Virus record (IMG/VR): IMGVR_UViG_3300042463_000422
Coordinates: 5,966-69,965 of that record
Origin: a virus
DNA length: 64,000 bases
Direction: 5' to 3' (one strand)
A program made the translations under genes and the position numbers. Shown one piece after another: positions 2,200-64,000 of this stretch (positions within the stretch are counted from its first letter, which is position 1; each line of letters opens with the position of its first letter). The notes below the pieces were generated by a model that worked only from the letters and a program-made list of their open reading frames with translations, ran no database searches and was not told the origin of the DNA.

Positions 2200-3177
2200 T
2201 TACTGGTCCTTGTAGTTGCGGTTGATGATCTTGAATCCGAGTGGTCGTCCGATGCCCATGGCTTCTCCATCGATCGGGCGAACAACGATTCCCTCGGCAG
2301 GCTTGCCGTCAGGCAGCGTCACGATGTCGGCGACGCTTTGCAGGTGCTCAATGGTTTCATCGAGAGTAACGGTAACTACAGGAACCCATTTGCACTGGAA
2401 CTTGTCTCGGCACACCTGAGCCATATCGATGTATCGAAGCCATTTGCCATTGGTGAGATCACGGATCTGGTAGACGACGAGCGTAGGCTCAGTGAGCTTC
2501 AACTGGTTCCCCTGCACACCCGGCCCCATCAACTCGCCTTGGATGACGCAGTTGGCACCCGGCGGGATGGTCAGCTTCCTCGCAGCAATCCAAAACCCGT
2601 TCGAGGCTGATTCCTTGAGCGACAGGTTGCGGCTACAGACGTGCGTGATGTTACCATCGACAACCACGATGGTGCATGAAGAACCGTCCAGCTTCAGCGT
2701 GGCGACGCACGGCTTCGACAGCGTGTGCTTCACGATATCAGGATGGCTCAGGCCATTGTCCTCGTCGGTCTTCGGGGCGTAGGAGGTTGGGAAAGCTCCA
2801 GCCACCTCACCGGACAGGCACGCCGGGATCTCCTTCTCGTACTTCTTGATACCCAGTTCGCCGCCCACGTCAGCGCCCTCCTGCCAGCCACGGACGTGCT
2901 CAGGAAGTATCGAGAGCGGCTGGACAAGTCCCTGACTGTACTCACCGCGCAGGCGGATCGTGTTGAGCCGAATCGGCTTGTCGCCCTTCTTCAGGAACGC
3001 CGACCACTCGGCATCGGGCAAGATGGTGTCGATGGGGATGAAAACGACGGACTCACCGGCCTTGAACTCGCCCTTGCGGACGATGATCTGCCACCCGAGA
3101 ACCTTGGCGATTTCGAGCGAGTCTGCGTTGCTGTGAGGAACGATGTCCTTGATGACTTCGATGCTGGCTAGTTTCAT
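2200..3177 (-). CDS. ATP-dependent RNA ligase, DRB0094 family
   Basis: N-terminal PHSNADSLEIAKVLGWQIIVRKGEF, motif I KLDGSS, QGELMGPGVQGN, EGIVVR, FKIIN. Confidence 0.9.
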   Translation of the reverse strand: MKLASIEVIKDIVPHSNADSLEIAKVLGWQIIVRKGEFKAGESVVFIPIDTILPDAEWSAFLKKGDKPIRLNTIRLRGEYSQGLVQPLSILPEHVRGWQEGADVGGELGIKKYEKEIPACLSGEVAGAFPTSYAPKTDEDNGLSHPDIVKHTLSKPCVATLKLDGSSCTIVVVDGNITHVCSRNLSLKESASNGFWIAARKLTIPPGANCVIQGELMGPGVQGNQLKLTEPTLVVYQIRDLTNGKWLRYIDMAQVCRDKFQCKWVPVVTVTLDETIEHLQSVADIVTLPDGKPAEGIVVRPIDGEAMGIGRPLGFKIINRNYKDQ

Positions 3178-45800: not shown

Positions 45801-48800
45801 TGAGGGGCGCTCTCAATGAGAACGAGGCTGACGAGGAGGCGTTGGATGCTCTTCGTGAGCAGGTTGGCACACGGGCGTCCGTGGCCATGGAGGCCGCGTT
45901 CAACCAGCAGACTGCATTCGACTTCATCGATGGCCAGCAAAGTGTAGTCAACGTCGAGATAGACGATGTATTAACAAACTACGATCGCGGCCTGAAGAAG
46001 TGGGTGCTCAAGAACATCGACAGTAAATCGCCTGTTGGGTTCTCACCCAAGAAGAACTTGGTCATCGCGGTTCGCAACTCCCGCAAGAAGTCGCTCGTCG
46101 AGAAGAAAACAACCGCGATGAGCTCGTCCGTCAACGAAGACGGCGAGGAGAGCTCACCGATCGAGCAGTTTGCTCAGCCTGTTAATAAAGAGAGTGCTGC
46201 TTCGCTGGCGTCCATCTTCAGGAATGTCGAGGCGCTTGCTGATGCCGTGGTCTCTGCAATCCAGAAGGCCGAGGCTGCTGTGCGTGGGCGTCAGCTGACC
46301 CCTGATGAGTTCACCAAGGCTGTCGTCAGTGGATTCAAATCACTGATTCCAAACGCCCCTGCAAACGTAGCCGCAACTCTTGAGAGTATCGGTCTCACTG
46401 CATCTGGAAACCTTCAAGACATCTACGACGAGAAGGGTATCGATGGCGTTGATAATGCCATCGCTGAAGGTGAAGCCCTCCTAGCCAACGCTGCCGCTCA
46501 GGACACTGGCAACCAGTCTCTCCAGCAGGGCGAGATAACCCTGGCCGACGCAATCAACACCGTGCTTGCTGGCAACACTGCTAGTAGCTGGATGCGCGGC
46601 ATCGCTGAGAAGCTACTCAAGGCCAAGCTCCGTGCCCGTGTGGTTGTGCTGTCCGACGCTGAGTTCGATCGCATCGCCCCGCGCCCCGGACAGGCCGCGT
46701 TCTACGACTCCAACCCTCAGTCCGACACGATCTACATCCGCCAGTCTGCTGCGTCGCACGACTACTTGGTCATGCACGAGGCGGTCCACGCGGCCACGGT
46801 GTACGCGCTGCGGACCAACGTGAGCTTCCGTAACGAGGTTCGCCGGTTGCGCGACGCTGCCGTCAACGCTCTTGGAGCGAACAGCTTCTACGGCCTGCAG
46901 GAGCACGGCTCCAACTTCAACAACCTGGCCGAGTTCGTCGGCGAGTCGATGTCCAGCCAGGAGTTCCGCGATGCGCTGAACGGTGTGGTCGACAAGGATG
47001 GTCAGTCGCTGTGGACCAAGTTCCTCAACCTGATCGGCCGCCTGTTCGGGTTCAAGGGTGAGCAGAAGACCCTGCTCGATCAGATCGTCAACCTGAGCAC
47101 CGAGCAGTTCGCGCCTAACATCGCCATCAGCGAGGGTGATCAGGGTGTTGGTGAGCTCATGTCTGCACCGCAGATTGAGAGCGCCGAGCAGCTGAACGAT
47201 CTAACATCTGTACCCGGACTCAACGCGGCGAACATCGCTGCGATCGAGAACCTGGCGGCGACGCAGGCCCAGATGGTTCCGGGTTCAATCGTTTCCCAGA
47301 TTGCAACGCTTCCTACCACGGTGCGTCGTAGCTTGAATTGGCTTGTTGAGCAGGCTGCTGCATCTCCATCACCTAAAGCCCTGTCCTCGATGCCAACCGT
47401 TACCGAGGAGGATGTGCAGGCCAAGCATGAGGCGGCGCACGCTGTCGACAAGCTGGCTCGAGATGTTGAGAACGAACGCAGCAAGGTGCTCGAAAGCCTT
47501 GAAGAGCAACGGAATCAGTACGCCGCTTTGATCAACGGCCTGAAGGCTAACCTTGCATCGGCCAACGCTGAAGTGGCTGCAACCACTGGTGTCGTTGACA
47601 ACCTTGTCGAAGACTACAAGGACTACGTTGAAGACGTGAAGTCGGTCAGCGGTGTGTTGAGCATGGCTCAAAAAACAGCCATCGAGAAAGAGGCTGAGAT
47701 TGTGCGCCGCACGCACAAGGAGTCCGACCAGATGCGCAAGGCGATCTCGGCGATTGCTGAAGGTGTCACTGACGCTGAGCTCAACAACGCTCAGACCAAC
47801 GACGACATCGTCAACATCATCGCCACTCGCAAGATGTTGGACGGAAAGGTTCTACCCGAGACGATCAACACGCTCTTCACTGTTGGCTCATCAGGCAAGA
47901 CCCCGCTTCAGTCCATGCGCCGGTTGATCCCCGCGTTGAAGATGATCAAGAAGATCAACTCCAACATCGCCGGGGTAAGGGCTTCAGTCGATGCGTTCGA
48001 GAAGGCTGTGTCTGGAATGACCGGCAACAAGCAGCGCAAGGTGAACCCTCGCGCATTCGCTCGCCTCTATCGCCGAGTCCTCCAGAAACAGTCTAAAGCC
48101 ATTGAGGAGGCGCGGCTGCTTGATAACACCATCAACCGGATGGAGCGCAAGATTCTCCGGTTGGTTCAGGAGCTCGACGTTTACGACAACTTGGTCGCGT
48201 CGCCTGAGTTCTCATCTCAGTACGAGGAGGCGATCCGAAACCTGAACATTCTATCCAGCAACGCTGGAGATTATGGTGGCGCAGAGGGTGCCAAGAGCGA
48301 CCGCAAGGTTACCTACAAAATTGGATCTCAACTGTACACCATTGAGTACAGCGCAGACCCAGTAACCAACGCGAACAACAACGCTGTTGTGATGAGCGCG
48401 CTTACTGCGATTGAGGCAGAGCTTAAGAAGCCGCTGAGCCCGATCGATCGCTACAAGCTGAAGTGGATGCGCACCAAGCTGACGTTGTTCTCAAATCCGA
48501 TGGGGGACGCCGCTCTTGCGATCAACAGTTTCGACATCATCAACCGGCTGCGTGTTGCAATCCCGATCCTCACGCCGCTGATCGATCGCGCTTACGTCTT
48601 ATCTTTGATGCCGGGCACTGTCGGCAAGGAGCTCCGAATCCTGCTCAAGGTTTCCATGTCGGTTGCGTCTGGTATTGAGGCGGCCCGCATGAATCCGCGG
48701 TACGGTGAGTACGCGATCAACCTTGCCGTCGACAACGCTATCAAGAGCCATCCCGGTCTCGACGCTCGCACTTGGGACAAGGAGGTTCTGAACGAGTTCC

Positions 48801-51800
48801 TCGGCAGCAATCAGGAGCGCACCGGTCGCAACCTCAAGGTTGGCGACACCACCGCATTCGGCCACGTCATCACCAAGGAGGATGTGAAAGCGGCTGAGCT
48901 TCAGGCCCGGTTCGCTGACGCGATCTATAAGGCGGCTCGCGGTTCTGAGAGCGGCGGCATCGCCATGTACTATCCGACTCTGGTTCAGGAGTCGTTCATT
49001 CAGAATGGCGAGAAGCGCACCCGATACCGTTACGCTTATGCGGGCGGCGCGTTCACGACCCCGATGATTCTGGATCGAAGCGAGCTTCCCGGAAGCGTGC
49101 TCGACATGGCGAAGCAGTGGTACAATTACGGTACTAGCCCATCAACAGCCTACTCCAACCGACTCGCGCTTCTGCAGGGTCGCAAGTGGTTGGTCAACTT
49201 CGCACTCAAGCACGTCATGGAGACAAGCCCTCTCTACAAGAGGAAGTCTCCGTACGCGAAGATCTATCAATCCCTCGCCGATCGCTATGCGTCTACAGGC
49301 AAGCTGCCCGGAACCCTAGATGATCTGGTCAATGACATCGACGCGATGACTCCGGCTCTCGGAGACGAGGTTGCGCGCAAGGCTGAGATAACCCAGCGAC
49401 TGGTCGAAGAGATCAATCAGTTCGTTGAATCGTACCTGACTCAGGTTCAGGGTTCTGATCGCGATGAAGAGACTGCTGCTCTGAAGACCGATGCGCTGTC
49501 GGCCAACTCTTTTAACTCGATCATCAGCGGGTCAAATAACTTCACCAAGCCTCGTGGTGAAATGGTTGCTCCGTCCAACTTCTACAACTTCACACTGTCG
49601 AGCGATAGCGCCAAGGGTGTGATCGCGCACTCGGCCATGATGCCGATTCGCATGCGCCAGTTGACGCTGATGGGAGATGCCAAGAAGGCGTTCGAGGTTG
49701 AGCTCGCAAAGATCAACGATGAGATCAAGAACCGAAAGGGGTCAGCAGGATATCTTAATCGCGAATGGACTGAGCCGAAGCGGAACGTGCTCTCTGGTAA
49801 AGCGTATCTGAATCAAGGCCAGTTGATTGATCTCGTTACGATGATCAACAACAGCCTCGATGTTCTTAAGCAGACGCTTGAGAAGCCTGCTGTTGGACGC
49901 CTTCAGACCACCGTTATCGAGGATATGCTGCAAGTTCGCCGAGTGATGCTGGTTGCTCAGCTGACATCGGCGATTATGAACTTCACTCAGGCCGTGACCG
50001 CGGGGCAGTTCACTCCGAGCATCTATCTTCAGGGCTACAAGCCGAAGAGCCTGGTCAAACAGAGCCTGCTGCAGATTGTCAGAGGCGCTTGGGATACCGC
50101 TGCCGCGCTGTCTTCCGAGAACAAGGCGGTGTCTGGATGGCTCAAGGCCAACAAGTCCAAGTCCATGTTCCTGATGCGCAAGTTCGCTGAGCGCACCGAG
50201 GAGTTCCAGAAGATGCAGGCTCGTTCCAATTTCGAGGGATTCGCTGCTCCCAGATTGGGTGTGTTTGAACGTGCTAGGATCATTCGACAACTCGGAGGGT
50301 ATGGATCTCAAGTTGAGGGTTTTGCTGACTCCAAGGGCTCCACGTCGCAGGCGCTTGAGAGCGTCTTCTCGAAGTGGTTTCTTCCGCACGTTGTGCTGGC
50401 AGTTCAGAACATCCCGGCATCGGTTGATCGAGTGGCAAACATGATCAACCTCATGTCCATTCAGGACTCGCTGAATCTTGTGATGCGTTCCGGCACATCA
50501 ATCATGGAGAAGCGAGCGGCGTCTGGCGCTGCCGGATGGGACAACTGGTCTGACCCGAAGAACCTGATCAGCGAGGCTGAGGCCGAGGCCGCTGGTTGGC
50601 AGCGTGAGACTCTGGTCAACATGCGTCAGGCGTTCTCTGGGCTTGGTGGCTTGGAGCGCGTGCTGCACGACTACTGGTTGCGGGTGCAGGCTGCCAAGGT
50701 TGCAGGCACTAGCATCGATGACGTCCCACCGATTGCTGATGAGGGATTCAACCGCGACATATCACGCGAGCTTCTCGGCATGACCAATGCCGCGATGGAG
50801 GGCATGCGTCCTGAGGCTATTCAGGGCCGCACCGTGTTGGGTCGCATCTACAACTTCCTGTTCACGTTCTCCAGCTGGGTGAACCGATACTTCAGCACGC
50901 TTGGAAACCTGACTGCTGTTGACCCGAAGCGTGGCTACATCAATTTCGCTGCTTACTCAGCGGTCTCGATGGCGCTTCTTCTGACTGTGCTTGCCATCTC
51001 TGGGGCATGGAACAACGAGATCCGTGGGTTCTTCTACGAATTCGTGAAGGGTCGGCCGTACGCAGTGACCCGCGTTGGTGATGTGCTCCGAGATACCACC
51101 CCCGGAAGCATTGCGAAGCTGGCAGCTGCGTCGATTGGCTTGATGGTCCCCTACGCTGGCGAGTCGATAGCCAATCTGGTGGGCGGTCAGAACTACCGGA
51201 ACTCTCCGACCGATATCGCCAGCTTCTCGCAGAGTGTGCAGCTGGCCAAGACGTTCTCATCCGCCATCGAGAGCGGCATGAAGACTGGTGACTGGACTGG
51301 AACACTGGTCAACACGTTGCGTCAGACGGTGCCAGGAACCGATGCTGTGCTTAACCGATTGCCGGGTGTGCGTGCTGCAGATGCATCGGCTGATGCAGGA
51401 CGTGCCGCCCGTGTCGCTGCTGGCCCGCTGGAGCTCTCCGACAAGGGTGGGCAGGGTGGAACACCCACCAAGTTCAGCAACCTCGTCAGAAGGGCAGAGG
51501 CTGCCGCCGCTGGTGGCAACCTTGAGGAAGCCAGAAGCCTGCTTGAGCAAGCCGCTGAGGAGAAGAAGAAGACTGGAGGCACCGATCCGTACGGTGCTGT
51601 GAAGTCTGCGATCGCCGGCCGATCTGTTGATCGGAAGACGTTCGGCCGAAAGCTGACGGACGACGAGCGTGAGGGGCTGCTCTCTCGCATGAGCGATGGT
51701 CAGCGTGCTGCCTATCAGAAGGCGGAAGACGCCAACAATGCACTTGCCGGCCTAGTTCCTGAATCGGGAAGCCGAGGCGAGTACGAGCGGGTTGGCGGAA

Positions 51801-52015
51801 AGCCGAAGACTGCGATCGATCGAATGAACACGAAGCTCAGGAAGATCCGCCGCTCCGCTACACCCAAGGCGTTGAGGGCGATCAACAAGAAGATCAAGTC
51901 CCTCAAGCCGAAGAAGCTGAAGATCTCGAAGCCGAAGAACGTGTCCGGCTCAAGGCTGCTGCGACCAAAAGCTCGGGGGGCGGGGGCTTCTGTGCTGCGC
52001 CCCGCCTCGATGTGA
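42854..52015 (+). CDS. giant ejection / polyvalent-type protein (3053 aa) with zincin HExxH motif
   Basis: Ala-rich helical; AAFY...IYI...MHEAVHAAT...EFVGE; last gene of the virion operon. Confidence 0.8.
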   Translation: MPKIIAVEGQGNLQFGDDWSDEQIDQYIEDKYFGGQSSAQSQAIPAAEKQGVWDSFTSGFGRGFEAGGIPFYSGGKEAVKSVGVLSAALAAREGTASDEQMQRLREYKAEEDKAAAEAEGRGSLERIAYGVGRVLGEAPGFAGELALTGGIATAGEKAAVKAAATAVKALGKETAYTATRKAADWAADKVSGRIVRGAAGAAAQTIPSGAARIVSGTAERMTPGFELEEAPGGTYFTETKQADPFVTAAYKALGDQFIEVLSERSGGFLTDMLGTGARKAGLGSTIDWASGLKKAVAGRVAQKYPGMFEGNNFIDAIGKTTKWDGVFGEMLEERAGEVGRAALGVQDYQAPSMEQLATEALGFGLIDAGFNGARLAAALSKKNLSKDQRARTQQALDAVTAAEIITPQTDLVENQEPISGDVAGSTVAITPSGRIIRTNSAKRRAELEAGLFLQQDSGQVIDDQEVADEQRVGQYPPEGFGTGVIPSAEEQQRRAAVRARVASRNREAANAARLQAMAAEEQAQREADAAAAVPQSRESAADQLNAVTSLLADQEALVNQPQSRFGPGARGEVPQTIRDAGTDVMAKLRALQQRDRELNAQIEAEIAARAEAKRLAAEKAAQEQAAREQAAAQARAAAEKAAQEKAAAEAAAANTPTSPPTDISLPVGTGAAPVGGVPVAAPVVASNGTQIQAPPAAAVATVQPAKTETPSGPAGSQTTQAQNQLTPPASRVAEVNAEVISAKPDHYYRSIQTPEDLDGTRHMDLGRIWPDTFVIEMSPEQKATNTGANDTFRGKVNPNNVTRIIYDNRSYSEYPADYVQALRSRFPNAEFVDAVLNDKEDGYVVLRKTPSINANQVQGPVAAPKYSDGTEVKAGDTIRWRTAAGKNEVLGTIDSIKDGVPQVRVTQLSKKAPNTQKIGNIELSGVYPVINSNLLEKREPVKEEEKKKIGRPSKITQTDDENVAAILEEGVNHPMWPRFSELMRGALNENEADEEALDALREQVGTRASVAMEAAFNQQTAFDFIDGQQSVVNVEIDDVLTNYDRGLKKWVLKNIDSKSPVGFSPKKNLVIAVRNSRKKSLVEKKTTAMSSSVNEDGEESSPIEQFAQPVNKESAASLASIFRNVEALADAVVSAIQKAEAAVRGRQLTPDEFTKAVVSGFKSLIPNAPANVAATLESIGLTASGNLQDIYDEKGIDGVDNAIAEGEALLANAAAQDTGNQSLQQGEITLADAINTVLAGNTASSWMRGIAEKLLKAKLRARVVVLSDAEFDRIAPRPGQAAFYDSNPQSDTIYIRQSAASHDYLVMHEAVHAATVYALRTNVSFRNEVRRLRDAAVNALGANSFYGLQEHGSNFNNLAEFVGESMSSQEFRDALNGVVDKDGQSLWTKFLNLIGRLFGFKGEQKTLLDQIVNLSTEQFAPNIAISEGDQGVGELMSAPQIESAEQLNDLTSVPGLNAANIAAIENLAATQAQMVPGSIVSQIATLPTTVRRSLNWLVEQAAASPSPKALSSMPTVTEEDVQAKHEAAHAVDKLARDVENERSKVLESLEEQRNQYAALINGLKANLASANAEVAATTGVVDNLVEDYKDYVEDVKSVSGVLSMAQKTAIEKEAEIVRRTHKESDQMRKAISAIAEGVTDAELNNAQTNDDIVNIIATRKMLDGKVLPETINTLFTVGSSGKTPLQSMRRLIPALKMIKKINSNIAGVRASVDAFEKAVSGMTGNKQRKVNPRAFARLYRRVLQKQSKAIEEARLLDNTINRMERKILRLVQELDVYDNLVASPEFSSQYEEAIRNLNILSSNAGDYGGAEGAKSDRKVTYKIGSQLYTIEYSADPVTNANNNAVVMSALTAIEAELKKPLSPIDRYKLKWMRTKLTLFSNPMGDAALAINSFDIINRLRVAIPILTPLIDRAYVLSLMPGTVGKELRILLKVSMSVASGIEAARMNPRYGEYAINLAVDNAIKSHPGLDARTWDKEVLNEFLGSNQERTGRNLKVGDTTAFGHVITKEDVKAAELQARFADAIYKAARGSESGGIAMYYPTLVQESFIQNGEKRTRYRYAYAGGAFTTPMILDRSELPGSVLDMAKQWYNYGTSPSTAYSNRLALLQGRKWLVNFALKHVMETSPLYKRKSPYAKIYQSLADRYASTGKLPGTLDDLVNDIDAMTPALGDEVARKAEITQRLVEEINQFVESYLTQVQGSDRDEETAALKTDALSANSFNSIISGSNNFTKPRGEMVAPSNFYNFTLSSDSAKGVIAHSAMMPIRMRQLTLMGDAKKAFEVELAKINDEIKNRKGSAGYLNREWTEPKRNVLSGKAYLNQGQLIDLVTMINNSLDVLKQTLEKPAVGRLQTTVIEDMLQVRRVMLVAQLTSAIMNFTQAVTAGQFTPSIYLQGYKPKSLVKQSLLQIVRGAWDTAAALSSENKAVSGWLKANKSKSMFLMRKFAERTEEFQKMQARSNFEGFAAPRLGVFERARIIRQLGGYGSQVEGFADSKGSTSQALESVFSKWFLPHVVLAVQNIPASVDRVANMINLMSIQDSLNLVMRSGTSIMEKRAASGAAGWDNWSDPKNLISEAEAEAAGWQRETLVNMRQAFSGLGGLERVLHDYWLRVQAAKVAGTSIDDVPPIADEGFNRDISRELLGMTNAAMEGMRPEAIQGRTVLGRIYNFLFTFSSWVNRYFSTLGNLTAVDPKRGYINFAAYSAVSMALLLTVLAISGAWNNEIRGFFYEFVKGRPYAVTRVGDVLRDTTPGSIAKLAAASIGLMVPYAGESIANLVGGQNYRNSPTDIASFSQSVQLAKTFSSAIESGMKTGDWTGTLVNTLRQTVPGTDAVLNRLPGVRAADASADAGRAARVAAGPLELSDKGGQGGTPTKFSNLVRRAEAAAAGGNLEEARSLLEQAAEEKKKTGGTDPYGAVKSAIAGRSVDRKTFGRKLTDDEREGLLSRMSDGQRAAYQKAEDANNALAGLVPESGSRGEYERVGGKPKTAIDRMNTKLRKIRRSATPKALRAINKKIKSLKPKKLKISKPKNVSGSRLLRPKARGAGASVLRPASM

Positions 52016-52491: not shown

Positions 52492-52566
52492 TGGTAGCGG
52501 GGGGTGGACTCGAACCACCGACCGTCTGCTTATGAGGCAGCCTAGCTACCACTGCTACACCCCGCC
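52492..52566 (-). tRNA. tRNA-Met(CAT), initiator-like body
   Basis: GGCGGGG UG UAGC AGUGGUA GCUA G GCUGC CUCAUAA GCAGA CGGUC GGUGG UUCGAGU CCACC CCCCGCU A CCA. Confidence 0.93.
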
Positions 52567-53339: not shown

Positions 53340-54521
53340 CTAACTAAAGATGCTCACGTCCCTGATGTCAACGACCAGTCTGAACCCACAGGTGGGCTCG
53401 CCGCGTTCGTCGCATGGGATGGTGACTGCTCGCTTTCCTTCAGCGTTTACAAGGGTCTTCACGAACTGCACCGGCTCTCCGTCCGGCAGGTTGATCCGCC
53501 CCTTCTTCACGATGTAGATGCGCTCAGGTTTGAACGTGAACGCGCTGGATTGGGAGACGCGCTGGCCGTTGGTGACCACTGTGATCTCCTGCATGTTGCC
53601 TGCTTTGACGCGAGCCTCGGACACGCCTTGTCTTATGGCGTCGGTATCAACGTGAACGTACTGGGAGAAGATCCGCGGATCGAGGTGACCCGAGACCTTG
53701 GTTGCCAGAATGGTGCTCATGCCGCTGTTGGCCAGCATTGAGACGAATGAGTGGCGGAGGCTGTGGAACCGCTTGCTGCGATCGATGCCCGCCTTGTCTG
53801 CGATGTACCTGAATGCGTCACTGCCACTGCTGGCAATGACGTGTCGGTCCATGTTGACCCTGCTGCCTGCTTGATCCGACACGAAGTCGGTTGGGCTGGC
53901 AGTGGGGGATTCAGCACGCAGGGCCTGCAACGCCCTGCCAAGCTCGTCTGTTGGGTTGAATGGTATGATCGACTCGGTTCCTGTCTTCACACGCCTGATG
54001 CGGATGAAGCATTTGTCCATGTCGATGTCACCCCACCGCAGCATCATGCAGTCCGCGATGGACATGCCGGTGTTCCATCCAAGAAGTATGACCCAGTCCA
54101 TCCAGTGGCCGGCCGCTGTGTGTCGCAGCTTGATGTACTCTTCGTGAGTGATGGCGTTGACGCTCCGCTCGTCGCGGATGGTTGGAGTTCGCACGGCGTG
54201 GTGCGGACTGGTATTTACTCGACCAGTGGTCTCAAGCCACCTCAGGAACCGACGCACCGAGTTCCAGTACTCCTGAGCAGTGCGCGGCTTGTGGTTCTCG
54301 AAGAGCCGGGTGCAGTAGGTCTGCAGGTTCTCCGACGTGATGGTGTCGTGATGGCACGCCTTCATCCAAGATATCCACTTATTGATCCAAAGTTTCGAGA
54401 AGTGGATTGTAGCTGGGCGGCGACCCGGGAAGTCGCTGTTGTGATATGTCACAGCAAGATGCGCAAGCTGTGATGGGTTCATGTAGATCACATGTCCTTG
54501 GTACGTAGTTTCTGTGGTCAT
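53340..54521 (-). CDS. tyrosine recombinase/integrase family protein (first catalytic Arg replaced by Ser)
   Basis: SAM-like N-terminus, TGMSIAD, KT, FHSLRHSF, SGH, QYVH. Confidence 0.88.
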   Translation of the reverse strand: MTTETTYQGHVIYMNPSQLAHLAVTYHNSDFPGRRPATIHFSKLWINKWISWMKACHHDTITSENLQTYCTRLFENHKPRTAQEYWNSVRRFLRWLETTGRVNTSPHHAVRTPTIRDERSVNAITHEEYIKLRHTAAGHWMDWVILLGWNTGMSIADCMMLRWGDIDMDKCFIRIRRVKTGTESIIPFNPTDELGRALQALRAESPTASPTDFVSDQAGSRVNMDRHVIASSGSDAFRYIADKAGIDRSKRFHSLRHSFVSMLANSGMSTILATKVSGHLDPRIFSQYVHVDTDAIRQGVSEARVKAGNMQEITVVTNGQRVSQSSAFTFKPERIYIVKKGRINLPDGEPVQFVKTLVNAEGKRAVTIPCDERGEPTCGFRLVVDIRDVSIFS

Positions 54522-59442: not shown

Positions 59443-60573
59443 TTACTCGACGTTGCCACCGGGAGCGAAGTCCAAGGCTGATGCGACACGGGCATCTACT
59501 GCACCGACGTTGCCGTGCAGACGCTGGTTGCGGAGGACGCACCAGGAAGCCATCCACGAGGGTAGGATGGCGAGGAAGCCGGACCAGTTGGTCGGCACGC
59601 TGTTGTTCTTGTTGGCGCAGTGATCGAACAGGTGCCTACACAACAGTGCCCACGACTCGATCTTCACCACGTTGGTCGAGCCATTGGCGCAGCGGAACTC
59701 GATGGTCTTGTACTTCTTGTACGCCTCGAAGTTGATCGCAGCGTAGCGACCAGCACTCGCATTGTATCGATCAGAGTCAGGGTTGTTGTTTACCCACTTG
59801 CAGTACTTGTTACGAAGCCGTGATTCACTCACCAGCTTCTTGAGCATGGGGTACAGCAGCGTGAGCCGATCGTAGGTTTGCGACGCGGTGAGAAGCATCC
59901 TGTCGTCGGACGGCTCGGTAGGAAGGTGACGGGCATCGATGTGGATGTGGACACCGCACTTCTTGTTAATCCGATACCCCTGCAGCTGCTTCTCCAGTGA
60001 GAGCAGACCCATGAGCCGACCATTGCTGGCCCAGGTCATGCGCTTGATTTCGATGCCGCCGCTGTCGAGTGATCCATCGTTGCCGACCTCGGTCAGACCA
60101 TTGTCTACCGGGAATTTTCCGTATGGGTAGTAGCACTCGATCTCGACCGACACCAGTCGGCCGACCAGCTTGGGTGCCTGCTTGGCAGCTTCCATCGCAG
60201 ACAGTTTTGAGACCGGCTTGGTCGGTGGGAAGAGCTTGTTGCGATGGTGAGCTAACTGGATGCGATTGCTTCCAGCATAGTCACCGATCAAGCTATCAGG
60301 AAGGGTGCTGTTCTTGAGTGAGTAGAACGACTTGGCGTTCCGCATCATTGACGCCAGCAGCGTGTCCTTGGCTCGCACCGGAGCACCGTGGACAGGGGCA
60401 AGGCTGTGGCCATAAGACGTTCTGTCCACAAGGTGGATGCACTGCTTGTAGCGGTGAGCGTCGCTTGAGTAGACGCCTGGGTATTTACTACCAGCAGCGA
60501 CCTCCGTCTTCTTAACGTAATTGAGGCCGCCGGTGTAACCCGCAGAGCGGAACATGGAGATGACTTGATACAT
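59443..60573 (-). CDS. putative amidoligase (amidoligase_2 / COOH-NH2 ligase)
   Basis: SVEIE, DGSL, IEI, CGVHIHID, RYAAIN, TIEFR..GS; start re-set to MYQV. Confidence 0.9.
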   Translation of the reverse strand: MYQVISMFRSAGYTGGLNYVKKTEVAAGSKYPGVYSSDAHRYKQCIHLVDRTSYGHSLAPVHGAPVRAKDTLLASMMRNAKSFYSLKNSTLPDSLIGDYAGSNRIQLAHHRNKLFPPTKPVSKLSAMEAAKQAPKLVGRLVSVEIECYYPYGKFPVDNGLTEVGNDGSLDSGGIEIKRMTWASNGRLMGLLSLEKQLQGYRINKKCGVHIHIDARHLPTEPSDDRMLLTASQTYDRLTLLYPMLKKLVSESRLRNKYCKWVNNNPDSDRYNASAGRYAAINFEAYKKYKTIEFRCANGSTNVVKIESWALLCRHLFDHCANKNNSVPTNWSGFLAILPSWMASWCVLRNQRLHGNVGAVDARVASALDFAPGGNVE

Positions 60574-60689
60574 AGGTGACTGAGTTGATGTTCTGACGCG
60601 GTGACGTTGTGTCACCGGCTTGGTCGTGGTTGACCACAGCACACAACCCATCTCTGTGAGAGCGATGGGTTGGCTGCTTTGGTCAGCAG

Positions 60690-60971
60690 TTAGTCGGTCC
60701 AGAGGATGTCCAGATCGGCCGATTGCCAGACGATGCAGGTGTCCGGGTCTCGGCCGTCTGTGATTATGCAAGCCTCCCAATCGAAGAGTCCGCGGAGTGG
60801 CTTGGATGTCTCGATGATGTGCTCAGTGTCTTCACCGAACTCACGCTTGGTCCACTTGCGGACCAGAGTTTCGAGGTCCAGTGGCTCATTGGCAGCAATC
60901 TCCATGATGGATTGCGTGCCCTCGCGCCGGTTGGTGACCAGCAGGTACTGGTCTGGGTATGTGGTGCTCAT
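60690..60971 (-). CDS. acidic hypothetical early protein
   Basis: 93 aa, ATGA coupled. Confidence 0.7.
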   Translation of the reverse strand: MSTTYPDQYLLVTNRREGTQSIMEIAANEPLDLETLVRKWTKREFGEDTEHIIETSKPLRGLFDWEACIITDGRDPDTCIVWQSADLDILWTD

Positions 60972-61321
60972 GCGAGTTCTTCCACCCAGTCGCGTTGCTT
61001 ACCGGCCGGTGTAACGCGGTGCATTATGGCACCACCCACCATTGACTCCCACCCGCTGAACCGGTGGGTCAGACCGCCCTTGACGCCCCATGTCAGGAAC
61101 TCCGTGGGCTGTAGCTTGTCGGGGGTCTTGGCGACCTCTCGATAGATCTCCTCGCGCACCACCTCGATGGCGGAGGCTGCAGACTCAGCGATGACGGGCG
61201 AGAACACCCGCTTCTTGGACCAGAACAGGCCGCTGGTCACGGCGACGACGGTGAACTTGAAGTACCGCCGCCCCTTGTAGGTGTCGAGGCAGGCGGTGGC
61301 AGGGATGGGACGTGGTTTCAT
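60968..61321 (-). CDS. hypothetical early protein
   Basis: 117 aa. Confidence 0.7.
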   Translation of the reverse strand: MKPRPIPATACLDTYKGRRYFKFTVVAVTSGLFWSKKRVFSPVIAESAASAIEVVREEIYREVAKTPDKLQPTEFLTWGVKGGLTHRFSGWESMVGGAIMHRVTPAGKQRDWVEELA

Positions 61322-61324
61322 AGG

Positions 61325-61750
61325 TTAGACGGCTGCTGCTTCACAGAGGTCTTCCCAGACGGAGTCCTGTCTGGACTTGGCTACGGTTTTGAGGTGCTCG
61401 AATTGAGCGGGCTTCATTGCGTCGAAGCCTTCAAGCCGGGCCATACGGAGAGCATTTTGGAGGGTGAATTCCATACGCCTGTTCTCAATCAGAACAACAT
61501 CGAGGTCTTGTTCTATGTACGCTGACTCAACACGGTCAATGTACATCACAATACGTCCACTGTTATTGCTCTGAGTGACCTCCACTTTGATGATCTTAGT
61601 GGCTACTATATAGGTATCACTATTCGACACATAGCACATGCCGATCAGTGACATTAGGTTGTTGTAGATCTCATCGTTGTCGAGTTTCACGATGAGGTTG
61701 CCGATGCTGTTGTGCAGAGCTTTTAGCTCTTCAATAGTACTTGTCTTCAT
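61325..61750 (-). CDS. hypothetical protein, visibly AT-rich
   Basis: 141 aa; atypical codons. Confidence 0.7.
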   Translation of the reverse strand: MKTSTIEELKALHNSIGNLIVKLDNDEIYNNLMSLIGMCYVSNSDTYIVATKIIKVEVTQSNNSGRIVMYIDRVESAYIEQDLDVVLIENRRMEFTLQNALRMARLEGFDAMKPAQFEHLKTVAKSRQDSVWEDLCEAAAV

Positions 61751-61753
61751 AGG

Positions 61754-62110
61754 TTAGTTCTTGGCGAGTTCAGGTGACAGGTGGCGGTTGACCTTGGTCC
61801 AGTAGGACTTGGTCGCAGACTTGGTGTGACCGGTGGGGCCACCATTCCAGATTCGGGCAGCGTCTTCAGGGCTTTTGCCCTTGGCCCACTTTCGCAGGTA
61901 GAGGTCACAGACCTTCCGGGCATCGGCACGATTGGTCATGCCATTCCATGTGTAGGACGTGCCGTAGAAGTGATTAACGTCTTTAACGACCTCGCGGTGG
62001 ATTTGGAGAGCGCCGATCGCCTTGCCGCCATCACCGACAGCGGTGTCAGGGTTGCGATAGCCGCCTGATTCGACAGCCATGAGGGCTGAGATGAGTGCAC
62101 TGTAGTTCAT
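61754..62110 (-). CDS. lysozyme-superfamily hydrolase (i-type/destabilase-like)
   Basis: AVESGG..AVGDGGKAIGALQIH...DVN, ARIWNGGP, T..YW.KV. Confidence 0.85.
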   Translation of the reverse strand: MNYSALISALMAVESGGYRNPDTAVGDGGKAIGALQIHREVVKDVNHFYGTSYTWNGMTNRADARKVCDLYLRKWAKGKSPEDAARIWNGGPTGHTKSATKSYWTKVNRHLSPELAKN

Positions 62111-62313
62111 CGGAGGATGCCCTCCGCTTTAAGGTGTGCCTCGAATAGCGGCAATGCCGCTTTGGCGGTCCTTGCCTTGATGCCCAGTGCCTTGACCATG
62201 GACAAGGCTGAGGGGCCGTGTGAACGACGCATACCCAAGCTCTCCAGCTTGAGCGCGCCCTTGATAGCGAGCATCCGATAGGCGTGGATGCCATCGGGAG
62301 TGTTGATAGTCAT
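62107..62313 (-). CDS. small basic phage protein (MTINTPDGIHAYRMLAIKGALKLE..GM)
   Basis: ATG 62313, ATGA-coupled to lysozyme. Confidence 0.75.
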   Translation of the reverse strand: MTINTPDGIHAYRMLAIKGALKLESLGMRRSHGPSALSMVKALGIKARTAKAALPLFEAHLKAEGILR

Positions 62314-62363
62314 AGTGAACAGAAGAACCCGCCAAAACCGGACGGGAACGGAACGAGGAACGT

Positions 62364-62418
62364 CGCTGGGCTTGTGACCAGCGTGCCGCATTACCGGGCC
62401 GAAGCCCGTCACTCTGCG
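62364..62418 (-). ncRNA. twister ribozyme, circularly permuted (P5-type)
   Basis: CGCA GAG UGA CGGGC UUCG GCCCG G U|AA UGC GGC A CGCUG GUCACAAGCC CAGCG; P1, P2, P4, T1 (UCAC/GUGA) and T2 (GGC/GCC) all pair. Confidence 0.88.
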
Positions 62419-62419
62419 A

Positions 62420-62605
62420 TTAGAACCGAAGCAGTAGGCCAGCGACCAGTAGGCCGACGACGCCTGCGATTGTGGGTGTCTCGCCGTGCTCCACGATCAC
62501 CCGCACTTCACGGGTGCCGACACGGACGACGTGGTGATTGGCTTTGGGCCACGCTTGGCGGGCGTAGCCGATGCCCCAAGGGCGTGACCTGCATTCGAGG
62601 ATCAC
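62420..62605 (-). CDS. small protein with C-terminal TM segment
   Basis: GTGA coupled, GGAGG SD; IAGVVGLLVAGLLL. Confidence 0.6.
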   Translation of the reverse strand: MILECRSRPWGIGYARQAWPKANHHVVRVGTREVRVIVEHGETPTIAGVVGLLVAGLLLRF

Positions 62606-62775
62606 GCGAGCCTCCGATCATGGAAAGCCAACTCGCTCCTGAGTTGGCGGATGTACCGCTGAGCAACACGGTCATCAGCGAGAGCCGTGTTGATCGAATG
62701 CTCCAAGCGGAGCTTCAGTTGCCGAACCCGGCGAACAGTCTCGGCTGGATTGAGTGGGATGAACTTGGCGCTCAT
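62602..62775 (-). CDS. 57-aa basic helical protein (MSAKFIPLNPAETVRRVRQLKLRLEHS...)
   Basis: Hand-translated; ATG directly after the upstream TAA; not in the ORF track. Confidence 0.65.
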   Translation of the reverse strand: MSAKFIPLNPAETVRRVRQLKLRLEHSINTALADDRVAQRYIRQLRSELAFHDRRLA

Positions 62776-62982
62776 TTAGTTGGCGTGAGTGGTGAGCTTT
62801 TCCAGAGCCTCGACGGTGATAGTCCCGTAGGACTTCGAGAACTGAGCACGGACGTCCGGATCATTCTCAATGAGCATCGCCATGGCTCGCACGGCGGCAC
62901 CGATAGCCAGAGCCTCGGTCACTTCGATTGACTGACTACGCCCGTTGAGGGCCTTGGATACAATTGAATCGATGGGAAACAT
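62776..62982 (-). CDS. 68-aa hypothetical protein whose AUG lies in hammerhead stem I
   Basis: MFPIDSIVSKALNG... Confidence 0.7.
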   Translation of the reverse strand: MFPIDSIVSKALNGRSQSIEVTEALAIGAAVRAMAMLIENDPDVRAQFSKSYGTITVEALEKLTTHAN

Positions 62983-63038
62983 AGGACGGGCCAGAAGCCC
63001 GTTTCGGCCCACTTGTGGCGGGGCCATCGTCAGCTATG
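62980..63038 (-). ncRNA. hammerhead ribozyme, type I
   Basis: CAUAG CUGACGA U GGCCC-loop-GGGCC GAAA CGGGC UUCUG GCCCG UC| CUAUG; full core and three stems. Confidence 0.9.
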
Positions 63039-63049
63039 GCCGGGACCGC

Positions 63050-63451
63050 TCAGGCGAGGAAGGCCTCGGCCTCGGCGATGGTGGCAAACTTGCCACGGTT
63101 GACCAGTTGCTGGGCGAGGGTAACCGGCTTGGCCACCTCTTCAGCCTTGATGAACTTAATCTGGGCAGAGTTCTTCCGCACGTCGACCGTATCGGCCACG
63201 AAGCCCTTGGACGCCAAGGCGGAGACGGTTGCGGCAACGGTCGCAGCACGGGCCGCAGATTCATCGGAAAGGGCAGCGTTGACGTAGTCCTTGAGGGCAT
63301 TGCCCTTGAGTCCAAGGGTCTTGCCGGTTTCCTTGAGGGTCTTGGCGCAGGCGGTCCCGATGAAGTAACGGGTACCCATATTGCGACCCTTGAATCCGAG
63401 AATGGGCGCGGAGGTGGAAGGCAGGGTGGCGACGGCGTTGGTGACGGACAT
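63050..63451 (-). CDS. Ala/Lys-rich early protein (133 aa, MSVTNAVATL...)
   Basis: Strong codon bias; ATG 63451. Confidence 0.8.
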   Translation of the reverse strand: MSVTNAVATLPSTSAPILGFKGRNMGTRYFIGTACAKTLKETGKTLGLKGNALKDYVNAALSDESAARAATVAATVSALASKGFVADTVDVRKNSAQIKFIKAEEVAKPVTLAQQLVNRGKFATIAEAEAFLA

Positions 63452-63469
63452 ATTGATTGAGAGTTGCAA

Positions 63470-64000
63470 GCGTTGGCCCGTATCGGCCCAAGTCTGAAGA
63501 CTTGGAATAAACCGCACGGTGGACACCCTAGGCGACGTGGACGCCGCTTGCATCTAGGGCAAACCGGTTGACCCCAACGGGATCGGACCGGCAAAGAGAA
63601 TGGACCCAACGGGTCCGGGTAAGGGTTGAAGTGTGCAGTGACCCTGCACGGGTATGGGTAGACTTTACCTTTAACGGCATACCTATAGGTACACCGGGCC
63701 GCTTGCCATTGCTGAAGAACCACGGTCGCGCCCTCCATGGTCAATGACCATGTAGGCTACCCTCAGTGCCAACTCGCTCCGATAGCTCATTGCCCAATTC
63801 GACCGCAGACTGTCAGGTGGATTCCGACACACCCCTTGCGGGGCCTTGAACCGACTCACGGGACCGGCCACACCCTTGAGAGGGCCGCCGTCTCCGACCT
63901 TACGGTTGAGCTTTGAAAGAACCGTCAGCACCGCCTCGCTTTCGCTTGGCACTACCGACACCACCCCTAGGAAACGCCTTCCTTTTCTCCGAATTGTGGG
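63470..64000 (-). ncRNA. large structured non-coding region / leader RNA (may extend beyond the window)
   Basis: About 12 hairpins, GNRA loops in minus orientation, long-range AGUGCCAA/UUGGCACU pair; no credible ORF. Confidence 0.5.

What the first reader, a model, noticed from the sequence alone, without database searches (positions are those of the whole stretch)
62980..63038. Hammerhead whose stem I contains the downstream start codon
Seen: stem I is CAUAG paired with CUAUG, and this AUG starts ORF 62776-62982. No SD is visible. Cleavage would leave 5'-CU-AUG, an almost leaderless mRNA. There is an extra U between A9 and G10.1, and CCGC at stem-loop II could pair with GCGG just upstream (63046-63049). 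Inference: translation is coupled to ribozyme cleavage, with the AUG sequestered before the cut and exposed after it.
Basis: partly seen in the sequence, partly recalled or inferred. Interest (0 to 1): 0.85.

Follow-up and report, generated by a model that had tools for sequence, protein, structure and literature searches.

The report
Phage hammerhead ribozyme holding start codon
A self-cutting RNA (a hammerhead ribozyme) in the early genes of a lake-water phage has the next gene's start codon built into one of its helices, so the cut should leave a messenger with almost no leader; relatives show that the ribozyme is real, but nobody has tested whether the cut turns translation on.

Summary
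Window 63038-62980 (minus strand) is a complete type I hammerhead. It has every core nucleotide, one extra U after A9, three helices, and a predicted cut between 62985 and 62984. This is not chance: the full descriptor hits the window once, 3 of 300 shuffles under loose rules and 0 of 300 under strict rules. Twelve of 14 related phage contigs carry a hammerhead at the same place, just after the stop codon of the gene upstream (two unrelated genes among the relatives), with compensatory changes in all three helices. All 14 carry a Twister-P5 0.25-1.1 kb downstream. The AUG in helix I (62982-62980) is the true start: 8 of 8 homologues begin M-x-x-I-D, and the in-frame AUG upstream is closed by a stop in a relative. 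The AUG-in-helix design occurs in 3 of 8 distinct hammerhead sequences and precedes two unrelated ORF families. The other 5 keep a leader of about 60 nt with a hairpin. The most likely function is constitutive processing of the early polycistronic RNA, giving a 5'-OH mRNA with a 2-nt leader. Cleavage-dependent translation is plausible but unshown. The proposed GCGG/CCGC pseudoknot is unsupported. This is a new variant of a known kind.

The parts
63050..63553 (-). Upstream gene, the first gene of the minus-strand early operon. The longest ORF is 167 aa and the true start is probably further in. The stop codon UGA is at 63052-63050.
   Evidence: ORF list. Homologues stand in the same place in L004 (44% aa identity), L005/L006 (75%) and L003 (100%). 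No Pfam or PHROG family matched.
63039..63049 (-).
   Evidence: Sequence. The spacer is the same in L018 and one C longer in L012. In the minimum-energy fold it pairs into a hairpin that excludes the hammerhead.
62980..63038 (-). Type I hammerhead ribozyme. Parts: helix I 63038-63034 with 62984-62980; core 63033-63027; extra U 63026; stem-loop II 63025-63006; GAA 63005-63003; stem-loop III 63002-62986; C17 62985. The predicted cut lies between 62985 and 62984.
   Evidence: 0-3 of 300 shuffles. RF00163 matches exactly here but weakly: 14.7 bits against a cut-off of 34. Model R1, built from the three AUG-type variants, finds the leader-type hammerheads of all 6 leader-type loci searched. On the alignment of all ten, 99.1% of 109 cells pair and 6 of 16 pairs change on both sides.
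62776..62982 (-). ORF of 68 aa whose AUG (62982-62980) is the last three bases of helix I. It is the first cargo gene after the ribozyme.
   Evidence: Seven protein clusters, all 68 aa long. M1, I4 and D5 are invariant in 8 of 8 aligned homologues, including L005, whose AUG lies behind a 55-nt leader. No Pfam or PHROG family matched.
62602..62775 (-). ORF of 57 aa. Its AUG directly follows the stop codon of the 68-aa ORF.
   Evidence: No family matched. Homology was not tested.
62420..62605 (-). ORF of 61 aa (GUG start preceded by GGAGG, hydrophobic C-terminus). It is the last gene before the twister.
   Evidence: The translations printed for the window and L004 (60 aa), and the DNA of L012, look homologous by eye; no alignment was run.
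62366..62418 (-). Twister-P5 ribozyme that closes the cassette. By the recalled twister architecture the cut lies between 62393 and 62392.
   Evidence: Rfam RF02684 scores 59.7 bits against a gathering score of 37.6. The same ribozyme is present in 12 of 12 related loci scanned.
62107..62313 (-). Next ORF (68 aa, phrog_19182, function unknown). It lies behind the twister, a hairpin and a pyrimidine-rich stretch.
   Evidence: Conserved in L004.

Best explanation
This is a genuine, probably active type I hammerhead in the early, minus-strand operon of a 69,965-bp tailed phage with direct terminal repeats. It sits 11 nt after the stop codon of the operon's first gene. It cuts the polycistronic RNA in cis after C17 (62985).

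The upstream mRNA keeps the ribozyme body (stem-loops II and III, 2',3'-cyclic phosphate end) as a structured 3' end. The downstream RNA starts 5'-HO-CU-AUG. Together with the Twister-P5 about 590 nt further on, the cut releases a cassette of three small ORFs. The content of this cassette differs from phage to phage.

In this lineage the usual ~60-nt leader with a hairpin is missing, and the 3' strand of helix I itself supplies the start codon of the first cargo gene. That gene is then translated from the cleaved, nearly leaderless RNA by 5'-end-proximal initiation that does not depend on a Shine-Dalgarno motif. The cut is constitutive and acts as a processing step, not as a sensor. Removing helix I and the GC-rich stem III next to the AUG is what makes the AUG usable.

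What is shown: the motif, its conservation and covariation, the identity of the start codon, and the cassette layout. What is inferred: cleavage in vivo, and translation of the cleaved form.
For: The motif is complete and is not expected by chance.

Conservation of position. A hammerhead follows the stop codon of the upstream gene in 12 of 14 related contigs. That gene is the 167-aa family in most of them and an unrelated gene in L008 and L017. Five contigs carry the AUG-in-helix type: the window's own genome, L003, L012, L018 and L019. Seven carry the leader type: L004, L005, L006, L008, L014, L015 and L017.

Covariation. The model built from the three AUG-type sequences recovers every leader-type hammerhead at E 0.0017-0.13. 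On the ten aligned sequences (8 distinct), 99.1% of 109 cells pair, against 15-41% when the partners are slid. Six of 16 pairs change on both sides. The covariation score is 0.426 against 0.129 in shuffles, reached by 0 of 500 shuffles. Within the AUG type, stem II shows G-C to A-U (window against L018).

The extra base after A9 is a known natural variant. CChMVd has an extra A10, and changing it to U raised the cleavage rate 3-4 fold (review PMC3705267, passage). Penelope-element hammerheads also carry a base there (PMC4209133).

Start codon. Seven clusters are all 68 aa and all begin M[F/Y]PID. Codons 4-5 are kept through synonymous changes in L005. The upstream frame is closed in L018. In L012 a different gene family follows the same CUAUG. 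Its ancestral AUG is lost, and only the helix I AUG keeps the conserved N-terminus in frame. A DNA contig of run X14 matches from 63600 down to exactly 62980 with no listed difference inside the hammerhead, then carries 281 other letters, and rejoins at 62604.

Host usage. Thirty-seven of 64 crude gene calls lack a Shine-Dalgarno-like motif.

The modelled accessibility of the AUG rises after the cut in all 3 variants.

Precedents. An engineered hammerhead that leaves a 2-nt leader gave a translated mRNA in E. coli, in vivo and in vitro (PMC5101355, passages). Hammerheads flank genes in prophages, and a halovirus hammerhead lies 13 nt before a start codon with the transcript's 5' end mapped within 3 nt of the cut (PMC3088659).
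Against: There is no RNA evidence at all: no RNA run holds the stretch.

No Rfam hammerhead model reaches its gathering score, here or in any relative. RF00163 scores 14.7 bits here. At that E-value level the same search also matches 13 of 14 control genomes. The full cmscan at E<=10 lists no hammerhead.

Two of the five covariation measures are unremarkable. The count of pairs with changes on both sides was reached by 106 of 500 shuffles, and the count of further pair types by 88 of 500. That alignment was also fitted to the model's structure.

The three AUG-type variants show no variation at all in helix I or stem III, so those helices are supported only by comparison with the leader type.

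No conserved helix I/loop II tertiary contact was found. With the 5' flank included, a non-hammerhead hairpin is 9.4 kcal/mol more stable in the window. The L012 hammerhead is not the minimum-energy fold. The ribozyme could therefore be slow.

The product has a 5'-OH and a 2-nt leader. A review states that a 5' phosphate is required for leaderless translation and that distance from the 5' end lowers it in some species (PMC9031893).

The twister's 3' product also begins with one base followed by an AUG, and that AUG is out of frame with the next gene in L004 and L005. Either such AUGs are not used efficiently, or they are tolerated.
Confidence: 0.55

Rival explanations
1. Regulated switch. The RNA first folds into an inactive hairpin made of the 5' flank and the 5' half of the ribozyme. 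Cleavage, and with it translation of the cargo, happens only when something releases that hairpin. One candidate is a ribosome terminating at the UGA 11 nt upstream. Cargo expression would then be coupled to translation of the first gene or to a cellular signal.
For: In the window the alternative hairpin is more stable than the hammerhead secondary structure (-29.6 against -20.2 kcal/mol), and it is transcribed first. Its 5' arm begins directly after the stop codon. The AUG is paired in the hammerhead fold and freer after the cut.
Against: The alternative hairpin is not conserved. It has a mismatch in L018 and no counterpart in L012. Leader-type relatives have 1-11 nt between the stop codon and helix I, and their AUG lies outside the ribozyme. 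No aptamer-like extra domain is present.
Confidence: 0.12
2. The cut serves the upstream gene or lowers cargo expression. The hammerhead gives the first early mRNA a structured, cyclic-phosphate 3' end and uncouples it from what follows. The cleaved cargo RNA (5'-OH, no leader) is translated poorly. The protein is made only from the uncleaved fraction or at a low level, so the AUG in helix I is a tolerated by-product of a leader deletion or recombination.
For: The type I topology leaves the whole ribozyme body on the upstream fragment. A review reports that a 5' phosphate and a 5'-terminal AUG matter for leaderless translation in E. coli (PMC9031893). The AUG next to the twister cut is evidently not a start in L004 and L005. 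The joint at 62980 in run X14, and the two ORF families behind the same CUAUG, also fit recombination at a conserved sequence.
Against: The 68-aa protein is conserved over 7 clusters at 63-85% identity with a fixed N-terminus, so it is expressed. In L012 the gene lost its own AUG and came to depend on the helix I AUG, which argues that this AUG works. In uncleaved RNA the AUG is paired and abuts a 7-bp GC-rich stem. A hammerhead-made 2-nt-leader mRNA was translated in E. coli (PMC5101355).
Confidence: 0.2
3. RNA release for another fate. The hammerhead and twister cuts leave one ~590-nt RNA with a 5'-OH and a 2',3'-cyclic phosphate. These are the ends that an RtcB-type ligase joins, so the cassette could become a circular RNA or be spliced out.
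For: The two ribozymes flank the cassette in all 12 contigs that show both. The chemistry of the ends is established knowledge. Perreault et al. raised circular or spliced products as a possibility for clustered phage hammerheads (PMC3088659). The phage encodes an RNA-ligase-family protein.
Against: The phage has no RtcB, and its ligase family joins 5'-P to 3'-OH ends (recalled). I saw no conserved pairing between the two ends, and the 5' ends differ between the two hammerhead types. Perreault et al. looked for such products and found none. The cassette holds ordinary conserved ORFs.
Confidence: 0.05
4. Not a ribozyme. On this view the element is a terminator-like hairpin behind the first gene that resembles a hammerhead by chance.
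For: The terminator scan lists stem III plus the tail that follows as terminator-like. Rfam hammerhead models score below threshold.
Against: Zero to 3 of 300 shuffles give the full motif. All core positions are kept in 8 distinct sequences whose helices differ by compensatory changes. Canonical hammerheads stand at the same site in relatives. The tail after the hairpin is not a run of U.
Confidence: 0.03

Closest known systems
Clustered hammerheads that flank genes in prophages and phages (Perreault et al. 2011, PMC3088659; passages read)
   Same: These are DNA-encoded hammerheads in intergenic regions of phage operons. Several ribozymes bracket single genes or short gene blocks whose identity varies. 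The proposed role is processing of long phage transcripts. Pseudoknots are a common tertiary contact.
   Different: In the passages I read, that paper describes no start codon inside helix I. Here the second ribozyme is a twister, not another hammerhead. The supplementary figures of that paper were not available to me and may show closer cases.
HHphage of haloviruses HF1/HF2 (same paper)
   Same: The hammerhead lies just upstream of the first ORF of an early polycistronic transcript, 13 nt before the start codon. The transcript's 5' end was mapped within 3 nt of the cut.
   Different: It is an archaeal virus. The leader is 13 nt and the AUG lies outside the ribozyme. It is a structurally unusual variant with a very short stem II.
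Type I hammerheads in the 5' UTRs and intergenic regions of RNA mycoviruses (Lopez-Galiano et al., NAR 2026, PMC13725137; abstract and passages read)
   Same: A type I hammerhead lies immediately before an ORF. In PtFV1 the ribozyme fills the 66-nt intergenic region and cuts 7 nt before the ORF2 start. Self-cleavage was shown to be essential for translation initiation of a chrysovirus reporter. Typical loop-loop contacts are absent.
   Different: Those are eukaryotic hosts and RNA genomes, and the cut substitutes for a cap. Here the setting is a DNA phage and bacterial initiation, with a 2-nt leader and the AUG paired within helix I. The authors set DNA-phage hits aside as already described.
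Engineered hammerhead used to make a leaderless mRNA (Di Martino et al. 2016, PMC5101355; passages read)
   Same: A hammerhead placed before an ORF produced, in E. coli, an mRNA that starts 2 nt before the AUG. That mRNA was translated in vivo and in vitro. The window predicts the same product geometry.
   Different: It is a synthetic construct under a T7 promoter. It is not a natural element and has no paired twister.
Hammerheads with an extra base between A9 and G10.1 (CChMVd A10, Penelope-element hammerheads; PMC3705267 and PMC4209133, passages read)
   Same: One inserted nucleotide stands at the same core position. A U at that position was reported to speed up trans-cleavage.
   Different: Those occur in viroid and retroelement contexts, with type III or dimeric minimal forms.

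Membership tests
Hammerhead ribozyme, type I | Conserved core: C3 U4 G5 A6 N7 G8 A9, G12 A13 A14, the A15.1-U16.1 pair, and H17 (not G) at the cut | tested here: met
   All are present at 63033-63027, 63005-63003, 63002/62986 and 62985. One U is inserted after A9 (63026), a known natural variant. The core is the same in all 8 distinct related sequences.
Hammerhead ribozyme, type I | Three helices around the core, with helix I open and helices II and III closed by loops, supported by covariation | tested here: met
   The topology can be read directly. 99.1% of 109 cells pair. Six of 16 pairs change on both sides (helix I 4, II 1, III 1). The covariation score was reached by 0 of 500 shuffles, and slid controls pair at 15-41%. 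Caveats: the alignment was fitted to the model, and two of the measures were reached by 88 and 106 of 500 shuffles.
Hammerhead ribozyme, type I | G10.1-C11.1 pair at the base of helix II | tested here: met
   G-C in 8 of 8 distinct sequences.
Hammerhead ribozyme, type I | Score at or above the Rfam RF00163 gathering threshold (34 bits) | tested here: not met
   14.7 bits, E 0.07 for this genome, placed exactly at 62979-63039. There is no hammerhead row in cmscan at E<=10. The canonical relatives also fall short (L004: 22.4 bits; none at gathering). Short helices and the inserted U lower the score.
Hammerhead ribozyme, type I | Tertiary contact between helix I and loop II (loop-loop or pseudoknot), needed for fast cleavage at cellular Mg2+ | tested here: inconclusive
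   GCGG (63049-63046) could pair with CCGC at loop II in the window and in L018, but nothing covaries. L012 has no CCGC. In the minimum-energy fold this pairing belongs to a competing hairpin.
Hammerhead ribozyme, type I | Site-specific self-cleavage that gives 2',3'-cyclic phosphate and 5'-OH ends | not testable with these tools
   This needs transcription and cleavage assays or end-specific RNA-seq. No RNA run holds the stretch.
Twister ribozyme, type P5 (partner element) | Rfam RF02684 gathering score (37.6 bits) | tested here: met
   59.7 bits at 62366-62418, and 57.6-64.8 bits in 12 of 12 related loci.
Leaderless (5'-end-dependent) mRNA | Start codon at or within a few nucleotides of the mRNA 5' end in vivo | not testable with these tools
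   A 2-nt leader is predicted from hammerhead chemistry. No 5'-end data exist.
Leaderless (5'-end-dependent) mRNA | 5' phosphate or triphosphate, reported as required in E. coli | tested here: not met
   Ribozyme 3' products carry a 5'-OH (established; also stated in the abstract start of PMC8782182 in the listing). The requirement was seen only as cited in the review PMC9031893. I found no kinase in the phage: PF13671 gave only a weak hit inside the helicase gene.
Ribozyme-dependent translation initiation (as in RNA mycoviruses) | Translation of the downstream ORF is lost when the ribozyme is catalytically dead | not testable with these tools
   Reporter assays are needed. Only structural accessibility was modelled.

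The most novel reading that the evidence does not exclude
The hammerhead and its built-in AUG form a portable 'ribozyme-start' module of phages. A single self-cut ends the upstream cistron and creates a 5'-OH mRNA with a 2-nt leader. The host, which seldom uses Shine-Dalgarno sites, translates this mRNA from its 5' end, so expression of the first cargo gene depends on catalysis. Because the module ends exactly at the AUG, any ORF recombined behind it is expressed. This would explain why two unrelated ORF families, and a third sequence I could not read, follow the same CUAUG. It would be the bacterial counterpart of the ribozyme-driven translation just reported for RNA mycoviruses.
Probability: 0.33. 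Interest if true: 0.75.

Novelty: new variant of a known kind. Interest (0 to 1): 0.55.

Why it matters
What the many hammerhead and twister ribozymes of bacteria and phages are for is still called largely elusive (review PMC6765202, passages). Processing of polycistronic RNA has been suggested but rarely tied to a consequence that can be measured.

Here the link is unusually direct. The start codon is one strand of the ribozyme, so one catalytic point mutation should show whether cleavage controls translation. Close relatives offer a natural control: the same ribozyme position with a 60-nt leader.

If the cleaved form is the translated one, it would show that a bacterial ribosome can start on a 5'-OH, 2-nt-leader RNA made by a ribozyme. 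It would also give synthetic biology a natural minimal insulator that leaves no scar. If not, the case still documents a hypervariable early-gene cassette bounded by two ribozyme classes.

Tried and rejected
Rfam. The whole window at gathering thresholds gave only Twister-P5 and a tRNA. The region at E<=10 gave only the twister. The hammerhead therefore had to be established by a descriptor, by synteny and by a model of my own.

Phage GenBank collection: blastn of 60000-64000 found no match.

Genome collection. The twister word found nothing. The terminase found an 81%-identical copy on an 11-kb contig binned with an Armatimonadetes MAG, and a 35% match in a Hydrogenedentales MAG. This is only a weak lead to the host, because a binned phage contig proves little.

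RNA evidence. No RNA holder was listed, so expression and 5' ends could not be examined. The four DNA runs laid were contigs only. The letters of the 281-nt replacement in X14 were not given.

The viral scan for the same helix I with free stems II and III returned L012 and L013, plus two matches inside coding sequence without a stem II (L025, L026). I rejected those two by eye.

Two twister-bearing loci showed no hammerhead in the DNA held: L016 (454 nt upstream of its twister) and L020 (1516 nt upstream).

MAFFT did not align the two hammerhead types structurally. I used the covariance model instead. I dropped its 5 weakest matches (E 0.14-7.3: window 49050 and 63707, L005 3835, L014 6349, L018 1543) by re-running at E<=0.135 before counting pairs.

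I checked by eye a uORF in the leader of the leader-type relatives. It is not conserved in frame or in end point, so I dropped the idea.

Stem-loop II of the window's hammerhead resembles the leader hairpin of the leader-type relatives. This is suggestive only and remains untested.

RtcB is absent. The PF13671 kinase-like hit is weak and lies in the helicase gene.

The sigma-70 promoter scan found 0 sites in 61800-64000.

Giliberti et al. 2012 is not held and is cited only through a review. I did not ask for supplementary files of papers.

That a phage hammerhead with the start codon inside helix I is not in print rests only on searches of the held library. It is not a proof of absence.
Full report
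WHAT IS THERE. On the minus strand, 63038-62980 reads as a type I hammerhead. The parts are:
- helix I: CAUAG (63038-63034) with CUAUG (62984-62980)
- core: CUGACGA (63033-63027)
- one extra U (63026)
- stem-loop II: 5 bp with a 10-nt loop (63025-63006)
- GAA (63005-63003)
- stem-loop III: closed by A-U (63002-62986)
- C17 (62985)

The rule for hammerheads is a cut 3' of position 17. That places the cut between 62985 and 62984, so the downstream RNA would begin CU-AUG. The 59 nt alone fold into this three-way junction as the minimum-energy structure. The window is part of a 69,965-bp virus record with 127-bp direct terminal repeats and 56.8% G+C.

IS IT MORE THAN CHANCE. The bare core pattern is not enriched (18 matches against 15.1 expected). 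The full descriptor, with its three helices, hits the window once. It hit 3 of 300 dinucleotide-preserving shuffles under loose rules and 0 of 300 under strict rules. Rfam does not call it. There is no hammerhead row at gathering or at E<=10. RF00163 scores 14.7 bits against a cut-off of 34, although the match is placed exactly on the element. Matches that weak also turn up in 13 of 14 control genomes, so this score counts for nothing by itself.

RELATIVES. I collected 14 related contigs, counting the window's own genome, using three queries: the upstream protein, a conserved word of the downstream twister, and a word of stem III. Twelve carry a hammerhead within 1-12 nt after the stop codon of the gene upstream. 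That gene is a homologue of the 167-aa family in most contigs. It is an unrelated gene in L008 and L017. All 14 carry a Twister-P5 0.25-1.1 kb downstream. The two contigs without a hammerhead, L016 and L020, hold only 454 and 1516 nt upstream of their twister.

The hammerheads fall into two types.
- A 'leader' type occurs in 5 distinct sequences on 7 contigs: L004, L005, L006, L008, L014, L015 and L017. It has a canonical core, short helices, and then 55-58 nt of leader with a hairpin before the next AUG.
- An 'AUG' type occurs in 3 distinct sequences on 5 contigs: the window, L003, L018, L012 and L019. Its helix I 3' strand is CUAUG, and the ORF starts right there.

A covariance model built only from the three AUG-type sequences finds every leader-type hammerhead at E 0.0017-0.13. 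I dropped the five weaker, unrelated matches by re-running at E<=0.135. On the resulting alignment, 99.1% of 109 cells pair, against 15-41% with slid partners. Six of 16 pairs change on both sides. The covariation score and the share of paired cells were reached by 0 of 500 shuffles. Two other measures were reached by 106 and 88 of 500 shuffles. The alignment is fitted to the model, which favours the structure. Within the AUG type, the only informative change is G-C to A-U in stem II between the window and L018. Taken together, the element is a hammerhead by sequence, structure, covariation and synteny. Catalysis itself is untested.

THE EXTRA U. L018 keeps the extra U. L012 can be drawn either with an extra A one position further in, or as a canonical core with an A-A mismatch in stem II. 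A type III hammerhead in L019 has the same inserted U. An inserted base at this position is known in CChMVd, where changing it to U raised trans-cleavage 3-4 fold, and in Penelope-element hammerheads (passages). The insertion therefore does not argue against activity.

IS THE AUG THE START. Yes, with good confidence.
- A search of the large protein collection gave 7 clusters, all 68 aa long. All begin M[F/Y]PID.
- With the L005 homologue, whose AUG lies behind a 55-nt leader, M1, I4 and D5 are invariant in 8 of 8 sequences.
- Codons 4 and 5 differ synonymously in L005, so they are translated, and no other start codon lies between them and the AUG.
- The window has an in-frame AUG inside the core (63027). 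In L018 that frame hits UGA after three codons, and L012 has no such AUG.

In L012 and L019 the same CUAUG is followed by a different gene, a homologue of the 79-aa ORF of L004. The position of the ancestral AUG now reads GUC. A remnant of the old leader is translated as a 7-residue extension, in frame with the helix I AUG. A DNA contig of run X14 matches the window from 63600 down to exactly 62980, with no listed difference in the hammerhead. It then has 281 other letters and rejoins at 62604. So the helix I AUG heads at least two unrelated ORF families, and apparently a third sequence whose letters I could not see.

SETTING. Crude gene calls place the element near the start of a minus-strand block that runs from the right genome end. 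The block includes an amidoligase-like gene, a GP88-family gene, an SSB and an integrase. Structural genes lie on the plus strand. The cassette between the two ribozymes holds three small ORFs in the window (68, 57 and 61 aa), one in L005, two in L018 and four in L004. None matches a family. Thirty-seven of 64 gene calls lack a Shine-Dalgarno-like motif, and many starts follow A/C-rich stretches. 'No SD' is therefore normal for this phage and hints at a host that relies on unstructured start regions.

MECHANISM. The best-supported reading is constitutive processing. The type I topology leaves the folded ribozyme body on the upstream mRNA and only CU before the AUG on the downstream one. In a secondary-structure model, the probability that the AUG is unpaired rises after the cut in all three variants: 0.61 to 0.98, 0.19 to 0.49 and 0.08 to 0.54. 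The first ~30 nt of the product are predicted to be open, although no more open than shuffled sequence. An engineered hammerhead that leaves a 2-nt leader yielded a translated mRNA in E. coli. In RNA mycoviruses, type I hammerheads just before ORFs are needed for translation.

Several things count against it.
- The product has a 5'-OH, and a review says leaderless translation in E. coli needs a 5' phosphate and suffers when the AUG is moved away from the 5' end.
- Helix I is weak, so 'sequestration' is modest.
- Most relatives do without it.
- No tertiary contact is evident.
- With its 5' flank, the window sequence prefers a non-hammerhead hairpin by 9.4 kcal/mol. It is weakened in L018 and absent in L012, so I treat it neither as a conserved switch nor as a supported pseudoknot.
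- The twister's 3' product also starts with one base followed by an AUG, which is part of the twister core. That AUG is out of frame with the next gene in L004 and L005. An AUG next to a cut is not automatically used.

COMPARISON AND NOVELTY. Hammerheads that flank variable genes in prophages, and the idea that they process phage transcripts, date from 2011. The same paper notes a halovirus hammerhead 13 nt before a start codon. The closeness of different ribozyme classes to one another in bacteria is also known, and their function is called elusive. What I did not find in six searches of the held library is a phage or bacterial hammerhead whose helix I contains the start codon. Supplementary figures were not available to me. 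I therefore rate this a new variant of a known kind. Interest is moderate to good, because it turns an old question into a one-mutation experiment and has natural leader-type controls.

VERDICT.
- Ribozyme identity: about 0.95.
- The AUG as the start: about 0.9.
- The composite explanation (processing plus translation of the cleaved, near-leaderless RNA): 0.55.
- Regulated coupling: about 0.12.

Noticed in passing
window 62366-62418 (-), with 62389-62393: The Twister-P5 (59.7 bits) closes the cassette. By the recalled twister architecture its cut lies between 62393 and 62392. Its 3' product would then start with one A followed by an AUG (62391-62389) that belongs to the conserved twister core. 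In the window this AUG is in frame with the next ORF (AUG 62313). In L004 and L005 it is not.
   Followed up: partly
window ~63554-64000 (-), next to the terminal repeat: About 450-560 nt upstream of the first early gene are much better conserved at DNA level between the window and L004 than the gene that follows (44% aa identity). No Rfam family matches (best 15.3 bits, E 1.5). This could be a conserved leader, a structured RNA or the early promoter region.
   Followed up: partly
L019 5268-5328 (+): A type III hammerhead, again with an extra U after A9 and with an 8-bp helix III. It ends 10 nt before an AUG. In this topology the whole ribozyme stays on the downstream mRNA. The same locus also has the AUG-type type I hammerhead and the twister.
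   Followed up: partly
L008 2044-2109 (-): A twister-P1-like motif (47.5 bits, E 1.3e-9, below the gathering score of 67.2; P1 does not pair) lies upstream of the gene that precedes the hammerhead. That relative therefore has twister, gene, hammerhead, genes, twister.
   Followed up: partly
window 62328-62346 (-), and the leaders of L004, L005 and L008: Both ribozyme types are followed, in most relatives, by a GC-rich hairpin, then a pyrimidine-rich stretch (CUUCUGU-like), then the AUG. This resembles the engineered ribozyme-plus-hairpin insulator RiboJ (recalled). Stem-loop II of the window's hammerhead resembles that leader hairpin in sequence.
   Followed up: partly
window 2200-3177 (-): A phage gene with the PHA02142 OB-fold domain plus an RNA-ligase nucleotidyltransferase domain (PF21189, PF09414). 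No RtcB was found in the genome.
   Followed up: partly
window 52495-52566 (-) and 53340-54521 (-): A tRNA with anticodon CAU (58.8 bits) lies close to a tyrosine-integrase-like gene, so the phage may be temperate. The terminase is 81% identical to one on a contig binned with an Armatimonadetes MAG (L021), which is a weak lead to the host.
   Followed up: no
window 28264-36216 (+) and 42854-52015 (+): Two giant ORFs of 2650 and 3053 aa. The first has a tail-fibre-like C-terminus (phrog_11355). The second has no PHROG or Pfam match at all.
   Followed up: no
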